Source: Rhizobiaceae bacterium | GTDB taxonomy: Bacteria > Pseudomonadota > Alphaproteobacteria > Rhizobiales > Rhizobiaceae | Length of the DNA: 64,000 nucleotides | Reading direction: 5' to 3' | Assembly (NCBI GenBank): GCA_051960255.1 | Contig: JBQCEL010000191.1 | Span: 2,604 to 66,603, forward strand | Part shown: positions 152 through 35,155 of the stretch, piece by piece | How positions within the stretch are numbered: the first letter of the stretch is position 1 | Layout of the letters: each line of letters starts with the position of its first letter | Program-made: the position numbers and the translations under genes | The notes under the pieces: model-generated | Databases searched by the model: none | Seen by the model: only the letters and a program-made list of their open reading frames with translations | What the model was told of the DNA's origin: nothing

Positions 152-979
152 TCAGGGCGAAAGATGGGTGCGGATCGTGGCCATGACCGGTTGCGTGTCG
201 CGCGCCACTGTCGACCAGCCCTGTTCGATGACGGTCATCATCGCATCGGCAGCGGCCTGGGGCTCGCGGGCCTTTATCGCCTCGGCGATCGCCATGTGCT
301 GGCGATAGCTGCGGTTCAATTCCTCGATGCTGTCGCTCGGAGCGCTGAGGCGGAAAGACGCCGCCAGCGCCGCGCCGATAAGCGCGCCGATAGAGCGCAT
401 CATCGGGTTTCCGGATGCCTCGATGACAAGAAGATGGAAAGCGAGATCGGCGTCAGTGAAGTGCTGCCGGTCGAGACCGGCATTCAGCATCCGTTCGGCG
501 GTCCGGTGAAGTTGCGTGACATGGTCCTCGTCACGGCGAAGCGCGGCAAGCGCCGCCGCCGTCGGCTCGATCGATTGGCGCATCTCGAAAAGACGGCCGA
601 TGAAACCTTTGTCCACCCCGGTTTCGAGCTGCCACCCGAGAAGGTCCTCATCGAGAAGATTCCAAGCGTCCCGCTCCCGCACCCAATAGCCGACCTTGGT
701 GCGGGCGGCGACCATACCCTTGGCCTCCAGCGTTTTCAGCACCTCGCGTAGCGCCGTGTTGGAGACGCCGAAACGCCGCATCAGGAGTTCCTTGCCGGGC
801 AGCGTCTGGCCGACGGGGAATTCGCCCGCAACGATGCCGAGGCCGATGCCGCGCAGCACGGTCTGGAAAGCGCCCTTGGTGGGCGAACGCCGATGTGCGC
901 CAAGCACGCCGAAGCCCTGGTGAGACCGTATGGTCCTAGCCGCCGGCTGCTCTTTCTGGAGGTCTTCCCCTTTTTTCAT
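152..979 (-). CDS. FadR/GntR-family transcriptional regulator (wHTH + FCD)
   Basis: GntR HTH (LPGKELLMRRFGVSNTALREVLKTLEAKGMV) plus FCD-type C-terminus (DLAFHLLVIEASGN); last gene of the sugar ABC operon; start ATG 979 or GTG 985. Confidence 0.9.
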   Translation of the reverse strand: MKKGEDLQKEQPAARTIRSHQGFGVLGAHRRSPTKGAFQTVLRGIGLGIVAGEFPVGQTLPGKELLMRRFGVSNTALREVLKTLEAKGMVAARTKVGYWVRERDAWNLLDEDLLGWQLETGVDKGFIGRLFEMRQSIEPTAAALAALRRDEDHVTQLHRTAERMLNAGLDRQHFTDADLAFHLLVIEASGNPMMRSIGALIGAALAASFRLSAPSDSIEELNRSYRQHMAIAEAIKAREPQAAADAMMTVIEQGWSTVARDTQPVMATIRTHLSP

Positions 980-14517: not shown

Positions 14518-16962
14518 ATGGCGGAGATCCCCTCATCAGCAAAAGTGGTGATCGTGGGCGGGGGCATAATCGGCTGTTCGACCGCTTATCACCTCGCCAA
14601 AGCCGGCGTCGAAGTTGTCCTGCTCGAACGCAAGAAGCTGACATCCGGCTCGACCTTCCACGCAGCGGGTCTCGTCGGGCAGTTGCGTTCCAACGCCAAT
14701 GTGACGCAGCTTCTCGGTTATTCCATCGACCTCTACCGGAAGCTCGAGACGGAGACTGGCCAGGCGACAGGCTGGAAGATGAATGGCGGCTTGCGGCTGG
14801 CGTGCAACCTGGAACGCTGGACGGAGGTGCGTCGCCAGGCGACGACCGCGCGCAGCTTCGGCCTCGACATGCAACTGCTGTCGCCCCGCGAGGCGCTCGA
14901 TCTGTGGCCGCTGATGAACATCGGCGATCTCGTCGGCGCGGCCTTCCTGCCGACGGACGGGCAGGCCAATCCATCCGATATCACTCAGGCGCTGGCGAAA
15001 GGCGCGCGGATGGCCGGCGCCCGGATCATCGAAGATTGTAAGGTTCTCTCGGTCGTCATCGAGGAGGGAACAGTCAAGGGCGTGAAGACGGAGCACGGCC
15101 CGATTGCTTGCGAAAAGATCGTCGCCTGCTGCGGGCTGTGGACGCGGGAATTCGCCAAACCGTACGGCGTCAATGTGCCGCTGGTGCCGGTTAAGCACCA
15201 GTACATCGTGACGGAGCGGATCGAGGGCGTGACGCCGGACCTGCCGACGCTGAGAGACCCGGACCGGCTGACCTATTACAAGGAGGAGGTCGGGGGGCTG
15301 GTCATGGGCGGCTATGAGCCAAACCCGGTTCTCTGGGCGCTTGACGGCATTCCGAAAGGTTTCCATTACACGCTGCTCGAAAGCGATTTTAACCATTTCG
15401 AGCCAATCATGGAACTTGCGCTGGGTCGCGTGCCGGCGCTCCAGACCGTCGGCGTCAAGCAACTTGTCAACGGCCCGGAAAGCTTCACGCCAGACGGCAT
15501 GTTTATTCTGGGCGAAGCGCCGGAACAGCGCAATTTCTTCGTCGGCGCCGGCTTCAACGCGTTCGGCATCGCCTCAGGCGGCGGCGCCGGCATGGCGCTT
15601 GCCGAATGGGTCCGCGATGGAGAGCCGCCCTTCGATCTATGGCCGGCCGATATCCGCCGCTTCGGGCGGCCGCATTTCGACGATGACTGGATCCGCAAGC
15701 GGACCTATGAGGCCTATGGCAAGCATTACACCATGGCATGGCCGTCGGAGGAGCACCATTCCGCCCGTCCCTGCCGCAGATCGCCACTTTACGAGACGCT
15801 TCTGGCCGATGGCGCGGTATTCGGCGAGAAACTCGGCTGGGAGCGGCCGAACTGGTTCGCCGATCTTGCCGCCGGCGAAGAACAGAAAGACATTTATACG
15901 TTCGGGCGGCCGAACTGGCATTCGGCGGTGGGGCGCGAGCATCGGGCCTGCCGCGAGGCCGCCGTGCTTTTCGACCAGACCTCCTTTGCCAAATTTGTGC
16001 TAAAGGGCCCAGATGCCTGCGTAGCGCTCGATTGGATGGCCGCCAACAATGTCGACAGGCCGGTCGGCAGTCTGGTCTACACCCAGATGCTGAACGATCG
16101 TGCTGGCATTGAATGCGACCTGACCGTGGCGCGGACCAAGCCTGACGAATATTACATCGTTACCGGCACGGGCTTCGCCACGCACGATTTCGACTGGATT
16201 TCCCGCAACATCCCGCGAAACGTGCGGGCCGAACTGGTCGATATCACCTCGTCGAATTCGGTGCTGTCTCTGATGGGGCCGCGATCCCGCGACATTTTGG
16301 CGGCCGTGACCTCTGCCGATCTTTCCAATAATGCGTTTCCGTTCGGGACGGTGAGGATGATCGGCATCGCCGGCTGCCCGGTCATGGCGCTGCGCGTCAC
16401 CTATGTCGGCGAACTCGGCTGGGAACTGCATGTGCCAGTCGAATGCGCCGCGAACGTCTATGCGGCGTTGCGCGAGGCCGGCGCCCGACATGGGCTCGTC
16501 AATGCCGGCTATCGCGCCATCGAGACGCTTCGCCTCGAAAAAGGGTATCGCGCCTGGGGATCAGATATCGGGCCGGACCACACGCCTGACGAGGCCGGCC
16601 TCGGCTGGGCGGTCAAGATCAAGAAGGCTATCGCCTTCAAGGGGCGGGCCGCCGTCGAAGCCCAGCGCAAAAGCGGGGTCAAGAAGCGGATGGCGACCTT
16701 CGTTGCCGATCCGGATGTGATTCTGCTCGGCCGAGAAACGATCTACCGCAATGGCGAGCGAGTCGGATGGCTGAGTTCCGCCGGTTTCGGTCATACGCTG
16801 CAAAAATCCATCGGCATGGGCTATGTGCGCAATCCGGATGGCGTCACCGAGGAATACGTCACCGGAGGCCGCTACGAGCTGGACGTCGCCACCGAGCGCG
16901 TGCCCTGCAGCGTAACGCTTGCGCCTCTCCACGACCCGAAGATGGAAAGGATCAAGGCTTAG
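14518..16962 (+). CDS. GcvT-family FAD-dependent oxidoreductase (sarcosine/dimethylglycine dehydrogenase-like)
   Basis: GGGIIG FAD motif, GSTFHAAGLV (covalent-flavin His), NGPESFTPDG, C-terminal folate-binding domain (VTYVGELGWELH, LRLEKGYRAWG). Confidence 0.92.
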   Translation: MAEIPSSAKVVIVGGGIIGCSTAYHLAKAGVEVVLLERKKLTSGSTFHAAGLVGQLRSNANVTQLLGYSIDLYRKLETETGQATGWKMNGGLRLACNLERWTEVRRQATTARSFGLDMQLLSPREALDLWPLMNIGDLVGAAFLPTDGQANPSDITQALAKGARMAGARIIEDCKVLSVVIEEGTVKGVKTEHGPIACEKIVACCGLWTREFAKPYGVNVPLVPVKHQYIVTERIEGVTPDLPTLRDPDRLTYYKEEVGGLVMGGYEPNPVLWALDGIPKGFHYTLLESDFNHFEPIMELALGRVPALQTVGVKQLVNGPESFTPDGMFILGEAPEQRNFFVGAGFNAFGIASGGGAGMALAEWVRDGEPPFDLWPADIRRFGRPHFDDDWIRKRTYEAYGKHYTMAWPSEEHHSARPCRRSPLYETLLADGAVFGEKLGWERPNWFADLAAGEEQKDIYTFGRPNWHSAVGREHRACREAAVLFDQTSFAKFVLKGPDACVALDWMAANNVDRPVGSLVYTQMLNDRAGIECDLTVARTKPDEYYIVTGTGFATHDFDWISRNIPRNVRAELVDITSSNSVLSLMGPRSRDILAAVTSADLSNNAFPFGTVRMIGIAGCPVMALRVTYVGELGWELHVPVECAANVYAALREAGARHGLVNAGYRAIETLRLEKGYRAWGSDIGPDHTPDEAGLGWAVKIKKAIAFKGRAAVEAQRKSGVKKRMATFVADPDVILLGRETIYRNGERVGWLSSAGFGHTLQKSIGMGYVRNPDGVTEEYVTGGRYELDVATERVPCSVTLAPLHDPKMERIKA

Positions 16963-17966
16963 ACGACCTGAAAACAGATGGGCATTTGATCGCTTCAGCC
17001 TCGTGAATGAAGACCAGTTGGCTTGCGCCAGCAAAATGCTCAGCGCGTTGGTGGACTGACCACGCAAAGCAGAATCGCACTTACCCACAGACGGAAGTTC
17101 GCTGACAGCGAATTTTATTCTGAACCTTGAGGCGCGAATCTCCTTATACAGAGCCATCGTATGTTGAAGGGGATAGCCCTCACTCACTGGGGCTCCGATA
17201 GGAGCCTCGAGGAAGGTCGATAGCCTCCTAATTTCCGGCCGGCAGGTGCGCGGAGCATATGGCGGCGCGGGCGTAGCGGCGCGTGTATTGTTTTTTTCAT
17301 CATGGCATGCGTTGCAAAACGGATGTCGCAGCCACCCTTGCCAAACTGGCCTGCTATCGTGGGCATTTGCCAACCGGCAGCCCGCTAAGCCCGATCATGG
17401 CGTTTTATGCACACTACGATGTGTGGGAGAGCATCGCAGCACATTGCAAGGCTAACGGGTATCGTCTGACGGTTTATATTGATGATGTGACGATTTCGGG
17501 GGCTGCTCTTGCGCCTGAGGTCCTTTGGAACATCAAGCGGGCCATCCACCGTGCTGGTCTGCGCTATCACAAGGAAAAGCGCTTTATCGACCGTCCGGAA
17601 GAAATTACCGGGGTAATTGTCGACGGGGACCGGCTAATTCCACCAAACCGACAACTCAAGAAGTTGCATGAAACTCGTCGCGCGTTGAAGCGGCGAATGT
17701 CGATCGGAGTAGAAAAGAAACTCCGTGAGCGGTTGACCGGTCTGGAGGGCCAGGTTGCGCAGATCGGCCTTGTGACGGTCCGCTCGTATTCCGCTGCACC
17801 GTCGCGCACTCCAGCGACATCGCGACTTCACGCCGCGTCTGTCCCGCAAAGTGGTAACCCGCGTGTAACCACGGCCCTTTGAGCCGCTTTCGCGCCTTGC
17901 GATTTCAACCGTCCAGAAAATGGAAAAGCCGCGGAGTTCCGCAGATTTGAGAATTTTTGGAAAGTC
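16963..17966. mobile_element. Degenerate island/prophage remnant at the tRNA-Gly 3' end
   Basis: Hand-counted 60-nt lines are about 52-57% GC versus about 60-63% in flanking genes; contains an RT fragment; abuts the tRNA CCA end; no integrase and no second att copy seen. Confidence 0.6.
17277..17882 (+). pseudogene. Retron-type reverse transcriptase, N-terminally truncated
   Basis: RRVYCFF, GHLPTGSPLSP (17367), YIDDVTISG (17475), GLRYHKEK, EEITGVIV (17604; VTG-like region Y); in-frame TAG at 17274; no intact motif A or NAxxH upstream. Confidence 0.85.
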
Positions 17967-18041
17967 TGGAGCGGGCGAAGGGATTCGAACCCTCGACCCC
18001 AACCTTGGCAAGGTTGTGCTCTACCCCTGAGCTACACCCGC
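17967..18041 (-). tRNA. tRNA-Gly (anticodon GCC)
   Basis: Reverse complement GCGGGTGTAGCTCAGGGGTAGAGCACAACCTTGCCAAGGTTGGGGTCGAGGGTTCGAATCCCTTCGCCCGCTCCA: cloverleaf, TTCGAAT T-loop, encoded CCA. Confidence 0.98.
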
Positions 18042-18069
18042 TCGATGCGGACTGGCCGCAAGCCGCGCT

Positions 18070-18098
18070 TATATGACCGAAGCGGCGCGCGATTGCAA
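18070..18098 (-). promoter_or_regulatory. Putative sigma70 promoter of tRNA-Gly
   Basis: TTGCAA-N17-CATATA about 30 nt upstream of the tRNA. Confidence 0.55.
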
Positions 18099-18235
18099 CA
18101 GGGAAATGATGACCGGCCCGCGGCTGGAATAGCTTTCCGGGCGGCCTCCTATCCCGAGGGGTCTTGTTCCGGCGGGGCGTTTCGCCCTATGGCTGCGTGA
18201 AGAGATGCTTTTTTACGCACGAGAGAGCAGGCCAC

Positions 18236-35001: not shown

Positions 35002-35082
35002 CCAAATTCCTCATGTCTCGGACCACTGATCCGAGAAGTAGGGTTTCCGCATGTGAGTTGAAACCTCGCGCAAAAGCCAAAA

Positions 35083-35155
35083 GGCACCCGGGGGCGCATC
35101 GCGCTGCCGGGTGTTGGCCTCCGGGATCAATTTATACCTCTAGGGGTCCCGGTCG
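35083..35155 (-). ncRNA. Structured ffh 5' leader (probably the alphaproteobacterial ffh RNA motif)
   Basis: Helices CACCCGG/CCGGGTG with inner GCGC/GCGC, and CCGGGA/TCCCGG, upstream of ffh; family assignment is from memory. Confidence 0.5.

What the first reader, a model, noticed from the sequence alone, without database searches (positions are those of the whole stretch)
17277..17882. Retron-type reverse transcriptase relic in a tRNA-Gly island
Seen: an ORF with LPTGSPLSP, YIDD and ITGV motifs in RT order and spacing, in lower-GC DNA abutting a tRNA; an in-frame stop precedes it and the first catalytic Asp and NAxxH region are absent. Established: YxDD plus a VTG-like region Y marks retron RTs, which act in anti-phage defence with an ncRNA and an effector, often in tRNA-integrated islands. 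Inference: a defence island has been almost entirely deleted here. This copy is probably inactive, but sister strains may hold the intact system with a possibly uncharacterised effector.
Basis: partly seen in the sequence, partly recalled or inferred. Interest (0 to 1): 0.7.

Follow-up and report, generated by a model that had tools for sequence, protein, structure and literature searches.

The report
Broken type VI retron beside tRNA-Gly
This is the dead remnant of a known kind of anti-phage system (a type VI retron): a single deletion of about 1 kb removed its toxin gene, its antitoxin-like gene and the front of its reverse transcriptase, so it is an ordinary pseudogene and not a new system.

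Summary
ORF 17283-17882 (+) carries LPTGSPLSP, YIDD and ITGV in RT order. It matches the type VI retron RT model (PADLOC RT_VI, E=4.4e-45) over model positions 114-271 of 279. Full-length relatives (about 290 aa, Hyphomicrobiales) show that 124 N-terminal residues are missing, including NAAQH and the motif-A Asp.

The interpretation needs correcting. The 180 bases just upstream (17094-17274) are the 5' part of the retron's own structured hybrid RNA (profile E=1.6e-37). They are fused at 17274|17275 to RT codon 124, and the fusion itself creates the TAG stop. So this is a compact cassette of about 1.7 kb (hyRNA with small toxin SP, HTH, RT) that suffered an internal deletion of about 0.99 kb. 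It is not a large island that was nearly erased. A 2-bp deletion at 17766/17767 bypasses the native stop and adds a nonsense tail.

The junction is identical in a JGI assembly and in contigs from three other metagenome studies. The remnant is barely decayed (dN/dS 0.12), so the deletion is recent. A relative (L008) keeps SP-HTH-RT on the same right flank. No integrase or att repeat was found. The effector class was already described in 2025-2026.

Verdict: non-functional relic of a known system; low interest.

The parts
16963..17093 (+). Spacer between the stop of the 814-aa dehydrogenase gene and the first conserved base of the retron leader. GC is 0.54. It may hold the cassette's promoter or be native intergenic DNA; this is unresolved.
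   Evidence: No homology to intact loci upstream of the leader. No sigma-70-like promoter was found. GC.
17094..17274 (+). Retained 5' part of the type VI retron hybrid RNA (hyRNA / msr-msd leader), corresponding to profile positions 5-185 of 517.
   Evidence: nhmmer with a profile built only from 24 intact loci gives E=1.6e-37. blastn identity is 72-79% to the region about 300 nt upstream of SP in L007, L001 and L003.
17098..17112 (+). SL-A, the conserved 5' hairpin TTCGC-TGACA-GCGAA.
   Evidence: Helix 1 of the consensus structure, nearly invariant in 24 loci; coordinates.
17189..17208 (+). SL-B hairpin (GGGGCTCC GATA GGAGCCTC).
   Evidence: Helix 2; 5 of 6 pairs show compensatory changes across relatives.
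17211..17229 (+). SL-C hairpin, carrying one A.C mismatch in the window that intact relatives do not have.
   Evidence: Helix 3 is 99.4% paired in 24 intact loci. The window reads GGAAGGT...GCCTCCT.
17269..17274 (+). 5' arm of hairpin SL-D (GGGCGT), cut off by the deletion. The 3' arm, IR1, anti-SD/SD, the SP gene and IR2 are all gone.
   Evidence: Alignments; helix 4.
17274..17276 (+). Deletion junction (17274|17275). The TAG stop is made by the join itself: T from the leader plus AG from RT codon 124 (CAG in L008).
   Evidence: The sequence is identical in L006 and is spanned by contigs of runs X1, X5 and X7.
17275..17771 (+). RT remnant, codons 124 to about 289 of about 291: palm motifs from LPTGSPLSP onward, YIDD, and the thumb with ITGV. 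Fingers, NAAQH and motif A are absent.
   Evidence: PADLOC RT_VI, model 114-271/279, E=4.4e-45; alignment A1; tblastn 81% to the L007 RT residues 125-291.
17283..17882 (+). The 199-aa ORF as listed (GTG start). The first ATG in frame is at 17307.
   Evidence: P0002 from the sister contig starts at the ATG.
17766..17775 (+). Site of a 2-bp deletion (between 17766 and 17767) relative to L007 and L008. It puts the native TGA (17773-17775) out of frame.
   Evidence: Alignments; coordinates. Most homologues end ...QIAAV* at this point.
17772..17882 (+). Frameshift read-through tail (about 36 codons) with no counterpart in intact RTs. From about 17821 it runs into DNA that also flanks tRNA-Gly in Oricola genomes lacking any retron.
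   Evidence: L058 and L020 match from 17821/17844. L006 has a further 1-nt deletion at 17878 that changes the stop.
17929..17944 (-). Terminator-like hairpin plus T-run of the tRNA-Gly gene (native DNA).
   Evidence: It is also present at the end of L008.
17967..18041 (-). tRNA-Gly(GCC), whose 3' end faces the relic. It is the left edge of the conserved tRNA-Gly / YbaK-like / thioredoxin synteny block.
   Evidence: L009 homology starts exactly at 17967.

Best explanation
The region is the inactivated remnant of a type VI retron, a compact anti-phage cassette whose intact form in related Hyphomicrobiales has three parts. The first is a structured hybrid RNA of about 510 nt that contains the reverse-transcription template and the coding sequence of a 57-58-aa toxin (SP). 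The second is a 101-aa HTH protein. The third is an RT of about 290 aa whose start overlaps the HTH stop.

In this lineage a single internal deletion of about 0.99 kb joined hyRNA profile position 185 to RT codon 124. It removed the 3' two-thirds of the hyRNA (including SP), the HTH gene and the RT fingers/motif A, and it created a TAG at the join. A later 2-bp deletion bypassed the native stop.

What remains cannot prime or catalyse reverse transcription and has no toxin, so it cannot defend. In published type VI systems, loss of HTH or of the non-coding hyRNA while SP remains is toxic. A deletion that takes SP out together with them is therefore the kind of loss a cell can survive (inference). 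The event is recent and fixed in a soil population.
For: Shown directly:
- RT_VI is the best model by about 90 bits over the next. Intact relatives score RT_VI 2.8e-89 and HTH_VI 2.6e-36.
- The SP-HTH-RT layout is seen in every intact locus examined.
- The leader piece at 17094-17274 is homologous to the hyRNA 5' part (E=1.6e-37).
- No trace of SP, HTH or RT residues 1-123 exists anywhere in the 64-kb window.
- The junction is precise, and the stop is made by the join.
- The junction is identical in L006 and in contigs of three independent studies, with no alternative joint.
- The hyRNA structure is real: 94.3% of cells are paired versus 84.2% in shuffles and 41-51% with slid partners; 35 of 50 pairs show compensatory changes; 0 of 500 shuffles reach the observed values.
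- Recency: 0 of 36 sites that are at least 98% conserved are violated, and 1 of 45 at the 95% level. dN/dS against L008 is 0.118.
- An independent deletion of the same kind exists in L109 (leader positions 3-212 joined to RT residue about 81).

From the literature:
- SP is the toxin. RT, ncRNA and SP are all required for defence. HTH loss is not tolerated (10.64898/2026.04.27.721009).
- Deleting the non-coding hyRNA or mutating HTH is toxic, whereas a catalytically dead RT is not (10.1101/2025.10.22.683967).
Against: - The ORF is still open for 199 codons and its conserved residues are intact. This is also what a selected gene would look like.
- A root metatranscriptome has contigs over 17484-17989 at a depth similar to the neighbours. 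Their strand is unknown, they run into the tRNA, and DNA carry-over is possible.
- The intact ancestor has not been seen at this site in the same species. L008 shares only the right flank, its left flank is off the contig, and its own RT has a 1-nt frameshift near the C-terminus.
- No empty site was found to fix the cassette's outer borders.
Confidence: 0.88

Rival explanations
1. The truncated gene, with or without the retained 5' hyRNA piece, is a functional module kept by selection. For example, it could be an RT thumb/palm fragment or an RNA decoy that binds hyRNA, HTH or a phage factor and modulates another retron elsewhere in the genome.
For: The frame is open and conserved sites are undamaged. 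The same allele occurs in many soil and rhizosphere metagenomes. A second lineage (L109) has the same leader-RT fusion architecture. Some RNA contigs cover part of it.
Against: Recency explains the lack of decay (dN/dS 0.118 reflects divergence before the deletion). The breakpoints differ between the window (RT residue 124; hyRNA 185) and L109 (residue about 81; hyRNA 212), so no conserved product is defined. The start region is unstable among strains: TAG>TGG, GTG>ATG, and extra T's after 17179 and 17290 in run X7. The stop region is unstable as well (2-bp deletion; a further 1-nt deletion in L006). SL-C carries a disruptive A.C mismatch. Strain SNPs are 3 synonymous to 3 non-synonymous, which is too few to decide. 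No other type VI component exists in the window.
Confidence: 0.05
2. This is the first reader's reading: the ORF is the last scrap of a large tRNA-Gly-integrated defence island that has otherwise been deleted.
For: The relic sits at the 3' end of a tRNA in lower-GC DNA. Content on that side of tRNA-Gly differs in every relative, and L009 homology stops exactly at the tRNA end. Three of 42 related retron loci also sit next to some tRNA.
Against: Both surviving pieces belong to one 1.7-kb cassette, and the lost DNA is internal to it. There is no integrase or att repeat. Neighbours of tRNA-Gly in ten relatives are housekeeping genes, not integrases. Intact cassettes of this clade sit in many unrelated contexts without integrases nearby. 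DNA from about 17821 to the tRNA is native flank shared with retron-free Oricola.
Confidence: 0.05
3. The truncation is an assembly or binning artefact, such as a chimeric join or a collapsed repeat.
For: The window seems to come from a metagenome-type assembly, and tRNA genes often break contigs (several syntenic contigs end at the tRNA).
Against: A 40-mer across the junction is identical in an independent JGI assembly. Single contigs from runs X1 (16700-17994), X5 (16853-17995) and X7 (16970-17504) cross it, with no joints or loose ends at 17274/17275.
Confidence: 0.01

Closest known systems
Type VI retrons (Mestre et al. 2020 classification; Retron-Vpa2, bioRxiv 10.1101/2025.10.22.683967; Retron-Sen3, bioRxiv 10.64898/2026.04.27.721009)
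   Same: The RT is best matched by the RT_VI model. Intact relatives have HTH_VI immediately upstream and overlapping the RT. They also have a 57-58-aa protein with a basic N-terminus and a hydrophobic C-terminal half, embedded in a structured RNA of about 510 nt. Inverted repeats of that RNA bracket the SP coding sequence, and its SD is paired. This matches the hyRNA described for Vpa2 (about 470 nt) and the IR1-IR2 pairing described for the Sen3 lineage.
   Different: The window copy lacks SP, HTH, two-thirds of the hyRNA and RT residues 1-123, so it is a pseudogene. The intact relatives are Hyphomicrobiales. The named SP subclades in the Sen3 paper are mostly Beta/Gammaproteobacteria, Bacteroidetes or Pseudomonas, plus a heterogeneous 'Large' lineage. 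Which subclade this one belongs to was not tested. SP has no PADLOC model.
Solved retron RTs: Ec67 (9lm3, 9i2f), Ec86 (7v9u, 7v9x, 8qbk), Kva2, Ec78
   Same: These are the closest solved structures by sequence to the full-length relative L007 RT (E from 1e-18 to 4e-06). The palm/thumb organisation is the same, with YxDD and a VTG-like region.
   Different: They are only distantly related and belong to other retron types with different effectors. No type VI RT structure was found by sequence.
Decayed toxin-antitoxin or abortive-infection loci in general
   Same: The pattern of loss fits the logic of such modules. The relatives show two tolerated routes: an RT split by a frameshift or stop with SP-HTH kept (L089, L090/L091, L092, L008), or SP removed together with HTH (the window, L109).
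   Different: This is an inference from a handful of loci and not a statistical test. L135 has SP followed by the RT with no HTH at all. That fits the roughly 22% of type VI retrons reported without HTH.

Membership tests
Retron reverse transcriptase | RT palm with a YxDD catalytic motif | tested here: met
   YIDD at 17475-17486, invariant in alignment A1.
Retron reverse transcriptase | Retron-specific VTG-like motif (region Y) in the thumb | tested here: met
   ITGV at 17604-17615; EITGV is invariant in 13 sequences. That this motif marks retron RTs is from my own knowledge of Mestre et al. 2020.
Retron reverse transcriptase | NAxxH motif (region X) and the motif-A catalytic Asp | tested here: not met
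   Both lie in residues 1-123, which the window lacks. They are present as NAAQH and LDVRKYFPS in all full-length relatives. The window copy is therefore a fragment and not a complete member.
Type VI retron | RT falls in the type VI clade | tested here: met
   PADLOC RT_VI scores 152 bits (E=4.4e-45) against 61 bits for the next model, RT_X. The full-length relative scores 297 bits against 138. No tree was built.
Type VI retron | Cro/C1-type HTH gene immediately upstream of or overlapping the RT | tested here: not met
   Absent from the whole window. Present as HTH_VI (E about 1e-36) in relatives.
Type VI retron | Small toxic protein (SP) encoded within the hybrid RNA | tested here: not met
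   Absent from the window. A conserved 57-58-aa ORF with a hydrophobic C-terminal half is present in relatives. Its toxicity was not tested.
Type VI retron | Structured ncRNA/hyRNA upstream with inverted repeats | tested here: inconclusive
   Only profile positions 5-185 of 517 survive: SL-A, SL-B, SL-C and half of SL-D. The full structure is supported by covariation in 24 relatives.
Type VI retron | RT-dependent ssDNA (msDNA) and phage defence | not testable with these tools
   This needs expression and phage assays. Given the missing parts, none is expected from the window copy.
Group II intron RT / maturase | Match to the group II RT-maturase model | tested here: not met
   TIGR04416 scores 14.5 bits against a cutoff of 300. 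No intron RNA was found by Rfam.
tRNA-integrated genomic island | Integrase gene and a direct repeat of the tRNA 3' end (attL/attR) | tested here: not met
   No ORF with integrase size or identity lies in 16963-17966. The longest repeat of the tRNA 3' region anywhere in the window is 12 nt, which is at chance level.
tRNA-integrated genomic island | Foreign composition and variable occupancy of the site among relatives | tested here: met
   GC is 0.55 against 0.63. None of 80 syntenic loci shares the DNA on the tRNA's 3' side.

The most novel reading that the evidence does not exclude
Fusions of the hyRNA 5' part to the RT C-terminal part arise repeatedly (this lineage and L109, with different breakpoints). 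One possibility is that they persist because the leftover RNA hairpins and/or the RT palm-thumb fragment still bind type VI partners or phage triggers and act as a decoy or regulator. Another is that the deletions are produced by the retron's own template-switching activity and not by ordinary replication slippage.
Probability: 0.04. Interest if true: 0.5.

Novelty: new member of a known kind. Interest (0 to 1): 0.18.

Why it matters
The finding matters little by itself. It is a recently inactivated copy of a defence system whose parts and logic were published in 2025-2026.

It has three modest uses:
- It shows that a well-populated Hyphomicrobiales branch of type VI retrons exists in soils, with a clearly covarying hyRNA. 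That branch includes an SD/anti-SD helix and a long-range helix bracketing the toxin gene. This extends the published RNA architecture to Alphaproteobacteria.
- The decay routes seen here agree with the published genetics. The RT can be lost alone, and SP is lost together with HTH and the RNA.
- It is a caution for annotation: the ORF is called as a 199/213-aa 'protein' in public collections although it is a junction-created fragment with a frameshifted tail.

Tried and rejected
1. I searched for att-like repeats of the tRNA 3' end across the window and found nothing above chance.

2. I searched for remnants of RT residues 1-123, HTH or SP in 16900-18100 and in the whole window. There are none.

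3. I considered that the 154-165-aa database proteins starting at the same internal Met (P0022, P0034, P0048, P0059, P0072, P0106) might be the same truncation recurring. This is rejected. The three loci I examined (for P0048, P0034 and P0072) keep SP and HTH and have an RT split by a frameshift or stop, and gene callers simply restart at that Met.

4. I looked for an intact retron or an empty site at tRNA-Gly in 80 syntenic genome loci. None has an RT, an HTH gene or the 814-aa dehydrogenase within 6 kb, so the cassette's outer borders could not be fixed that way.

5. The promoter scan of 16900-18100 found none.

6. Rfam finds only the tRNA in the region and has no retron ncRNA hit.

7. Evidence of transcription is ambiguous. 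It comes from unstranded contigs, covers only part of the relic, and is contiguous with the tRNA.

8. Strain-level pN/pS rests on only 6 SNPs (3 synonymous, 3 non-synonymous) and is uninformative.

9. There is no microhomology at the window's junction. An 8-nt GCGGCGCG occurs on both sides, but both copies are retained, so simple slipped-repeat deletion does not explain it.

Full report
**Observation.** The in-frame TAG at 17274-17276 precedes it. tRNA-Gly(GCC) lies at 17967-18041 on the - strand, with its 3' end towards the ORF. GC falls to 0.54-0.57 across 16963-17775 against 0.63 for the window. The resemblance to RTs is not chance. Pfam RVT_1 is weak (22.6 bits, below the cutoff), but the PADLOC model for type VI retron RTs matches at E=4.4e-45 over model positions 114-271 of 279. 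The next best model, RT_X, scores only 61 bits. NCBIfam gives only retron models plus a negligible group II intron score (14.5 bits against a cutoff of 300).

**What is missing from the protein.** A database search found 386 homologues. The full-length ones are about 290 aa, mostly from Hyphomicrobiales (Aquibium, Agrobacterium, Shinella, Rhizobium, Labrys, Methylobacterium), and 70-81% identical over the first 163 residues of the ORF. In the alignment, homology begins exactly at RRVY, the first codons after the TAG. The 124 residues that precede it in intact proteins are absent, including NAAQH and LDVRKYFPS with the motif-A Asp. At the other end, intact proteins stop at ...GQVAQIAAV*, whereas the window reads on for 36 more codons. 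DNA alignment with the two closest intact genes (L008 at 86% nt and L007 at 75% nt) shows a 2-bp deletion between 17766 and 17767. That deletion puts the native TGA (17773-17775) out of frame.

**What the intact system looks like.** Every intact locus examined has the same layout: a conserved leader, a 57-58-aa ORF, a 101-aa HTH_3 protein, and the RT, whose start overlaps the HTH stop. PADLOC types the two larger proteins as HTH_VI (E about 1e-36) and RT_VI (2.8e-89 over the whole model). The small protein has a basic N-terminus and a hydrophobic C-terminal half.

This is the architecture published for type VI retrons. In Retron-Vpa2, a hybrid RNA of about 470 nt carries the msr-msd and a translationally repressed small toxin (SP). 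[quoted passage not shown] In Retron-Sen3, SP is the toxin and HTH neutralises it and is needed for viability. RT, ncRNA and SP are all needed for defence (bioRxiv 10.64898/2026.04.27.721009).

**The key correction: the deletion is internal.** blastn shows that window 17097-17274, immediately upstream of the TAG, is 72-79% identical to the leader of intact loci, about 300 nt upstream of SP. I aligned the leader-to-HTH region of 24 diverse intact loci (A3). RNAalifold gives nine helices, and 35 of 50 pairs show compensatory changes. The counts hold against both controls: 94.3% of cells are paired against 84.2% in shuffles and 41-51% with slid partners, and 0 of 500 shuffles reach any observed measure.

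The structure includes:
- a near-invariant 5' hairpin (SL-A);
- three further hairpins (SL-B, SL-C, SL-D);
- a helix pairing CTTTCC-like bases with the SP Shine-Dalgarno;
- a helix pairing upstream bases with the first codons of SP;
- a long-range helix (GCAGGG...CCCTGC) bracketing the SP coding sequence.

The SD pairing suggests Vpa2-like translational repression in this clade (inference).

A profile built from these 24 intact loci alone hits the window at 17094-17274 with E=1.6e-37, covering profile positions 5-185 of 517. So the window keeps SL-A (17098-17112), SL-B (17189-17208), SL-C (17211-17229) and only the 5' arm of SL-D (17269-17274). It then continues directly with RT codon 124.

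The join is ...GGCGGCGCGGGCGT|AGCGGCGCGTGTATTG.... The T comes from the leader and the AG from the CAG codon seen in L008, so the deletion itself made the TAG. In L007 or L001 coordinates the missing segment is about 991 bp. It comprises the rest of the hyRNA with SP, the HTH gene and RT codons 1-123. Nothing resembling these exists elsewhere in the window.

**Is it real?** A 40-mer across the junction is identical in an independent JGI metagenome contig that is 99.3% identical to the window over 8 kb (L006). Single contigs from three further studies cross it with no alternative joint: X1 at 16700-17994, X5 at 16853-17995 and X7 at 16970-17504. The allele is therefore fixed in a bacterium found in soil, rhizosphere and wetland samples.

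**Age and state.** The RT remnant violates none of the 36 sites conserved in at least 98% of 101 full-length homologues. At the 95% level it violates one of 45 (W to C, five residues from the junction). That is no worse than intact genes. dN/dS against L008 is 0.118. The lesions beyond the main deletion are few: the 2-bp deletion at the stop, an A.C mismatch in SL-C, and strain-level indels and substitutions at the ORF's start (X7: TAG>TGG, GTG>ATG, extra T's) and end (L006: 1-nt deletion at 17878). This fits a recent deletion followed by the beginning of neutral decay. Transcription evidence is ambiguous: RNA contigs of one metatranscriptome cover 17484-17989, unstranded and contiguous with the tRNA.

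**The 'tRNA-Gly island' reading.** The block tRNA-Gly(GCC) / YbaK-like / thioredoxin is conserved in nearly all of the 80 syntenic loci fetched from related genomes; of the 42 scanned for tRNAs, 41 have the tRNA-Gly. The other side of the tRNA is different in each, and none carries an RT, an HTH gene or the 814-aa dehydrogenase. Homology to the nearest genome (L009) starts exactly at the tRNA 3' end.

So the site is a synteny breakpoint, and the cassette is foreign by composition. However, there is no integrase and no att repeat. In ten relatives the neighbour is a housekeeping gene such as ABC-3, DinB, MacB/FtsX, isochorismatase or GGT. Only 3 of 42 related retron loci lie near any tRNA (Pro, Arg, Tyr).

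DNA from about 17821 to the tRNA, including the tRNA terminator hairpin at 17944-17929, is shared with retron-free Oricola genomes. The cassette's right edge therefore lies between 17775 and 17821, and its left edge is near 17094. L008 stays homologous to the window from the RT through the 3' flank to its contig end, about 30 nt from the tRNA, and it carries SP, HTH and an RT. This is the best evidence that an intact cassette once sat here. Its left flank is not available.

**Other decay in the clade.**
- Several relatives keep SP and HTH but have a split RT (L089, L090/L091, L092; L008 has a 1-nt frameshift near the C-terminus).
- L109, whose RT remnant is about 55% identical to the window's protein, has an independent fusion of leader positions 3-212 to RT residue about 81, with 4-5 nt of microhomology, next to a tRNA-Arg.
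- A third family (L096/L097/L098/L118) starts at residue about 79 behind unrelated DNA.

These routes agree with the published genetics. The RT can be lost alone, and HTH and the non-coding RNA are lost only together with SP. This rests on a handful of loci, so it is inference.

**Verdict.** The region is a recently disabled type VI retron: a known kind of system in an ordinary state of decay. The only reading with some novelty is that such leader-RT fusions are retained or generated for a reason. The evidence does not exclude it, but nothing positive supports it.

Noticed in passing
L109:568-1397 (metagenome contig Ga0193709_1005168): An independent relic of the same architecture. hyRNA leader positions 3-212 are fused to RT residue about 81 (junction ...AGTATAG|CGCCCCCTGAT, 4-5 nt of microhomology), with no SP or HTH. 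It lies about 50 nt downstream of a tRNA-Arg(GCG) at 429-515.
   Followed up: partly
L096:2776-3522, with L097, L098 and L118 (98-99% identical to each other): A third 5'-truncated RT, with homology from residue about 79. It has an open 248-aa frame behind unrelated upstream DNA and occurs in four metagenomes. Its breakpoint is within 2-3 codons of L109's, although the two are only 66% identical in DNA. Whether this is coincidence, a hotspot or shared ancestry is not resolved.
   Followed up: partly
L089:1607-3002; L090:770-2150 (same as L091); L092:584-1995; L008:109-1487: Relatives with intact SP and HTH genes but an RT split by a frameshift or stop. L090 and L091 show the same split in two independent assemblies. 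This suggests the SP-HTH pair can persist without a working RT.
   Followed up: partly
L135:194-1397: The hyRNA and an SP-like ORF (METLGNLKRKRGQSK...) are followed directly by the RT with no HTH gene. This fits the roughly 22% of type VI retrons reported without HTH.
   Followed up: partly
L144:2975-3163; L146:430-647; L148:1179-1303: Short internal RT fragments (about 40-75 residues around the thumb). L144's and L146's lie inside their contigs, and L148's reaches its contig end. They may be further relics of this retron clade.
   Followed up: no
L114:3630-3715: A tRNA-Tyr(GTA) on the minus strand about 150 nt downstream of an intact RT, the same RT-then-reverse-tRNA arrangement as in the window.
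   Followed up: no
window 240-334: ARAGORN calls a 95-nt 'tRNA-Stop' with anticodon TTA. Rfam's tRNA model does not reach its gathering score there, so it is probably a false positive.
   Followed up: partly
window 35077-35128 (-): Rfam ffh sRNA match (61.4 bits against a gathering score of 35).
   Followed up: no
L010:5240-5603 and L011:5267-5618 (Pseudochrobactrum): tRNA-Gly(GCC) is tandemly duplicated upstream of the YbaK-like gene in these two genomes.
   Followed up: no
L009:335-1641 (-): In the nearest genome, the tRNA-Gly 3' side carries two overlapping minus-strand ORFs (298 and 137 aa) that look like a small two-gene module. They were not typed.
   Followed up: no
window 17179, 17275, 17283, 17290 (run X7 strain): A strain variant turns the junction TAG into TGG and the GTG start into ATG, and adds a T after 17179 and another after 17290 (the latter in the T-run). 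The start of the ORF is therefore not conserved within the population.
   Followed up: partly
window 17484-17989 (run X14, root metatranscriptome): RNA-library contigs cover the 3' two-thirds of the relic contiguously with the tRNA, and none covers 17079-17483. This could be read-through antisense from the tRNA gene, sense transcription or DNA carry-over.
   Followed up: partly
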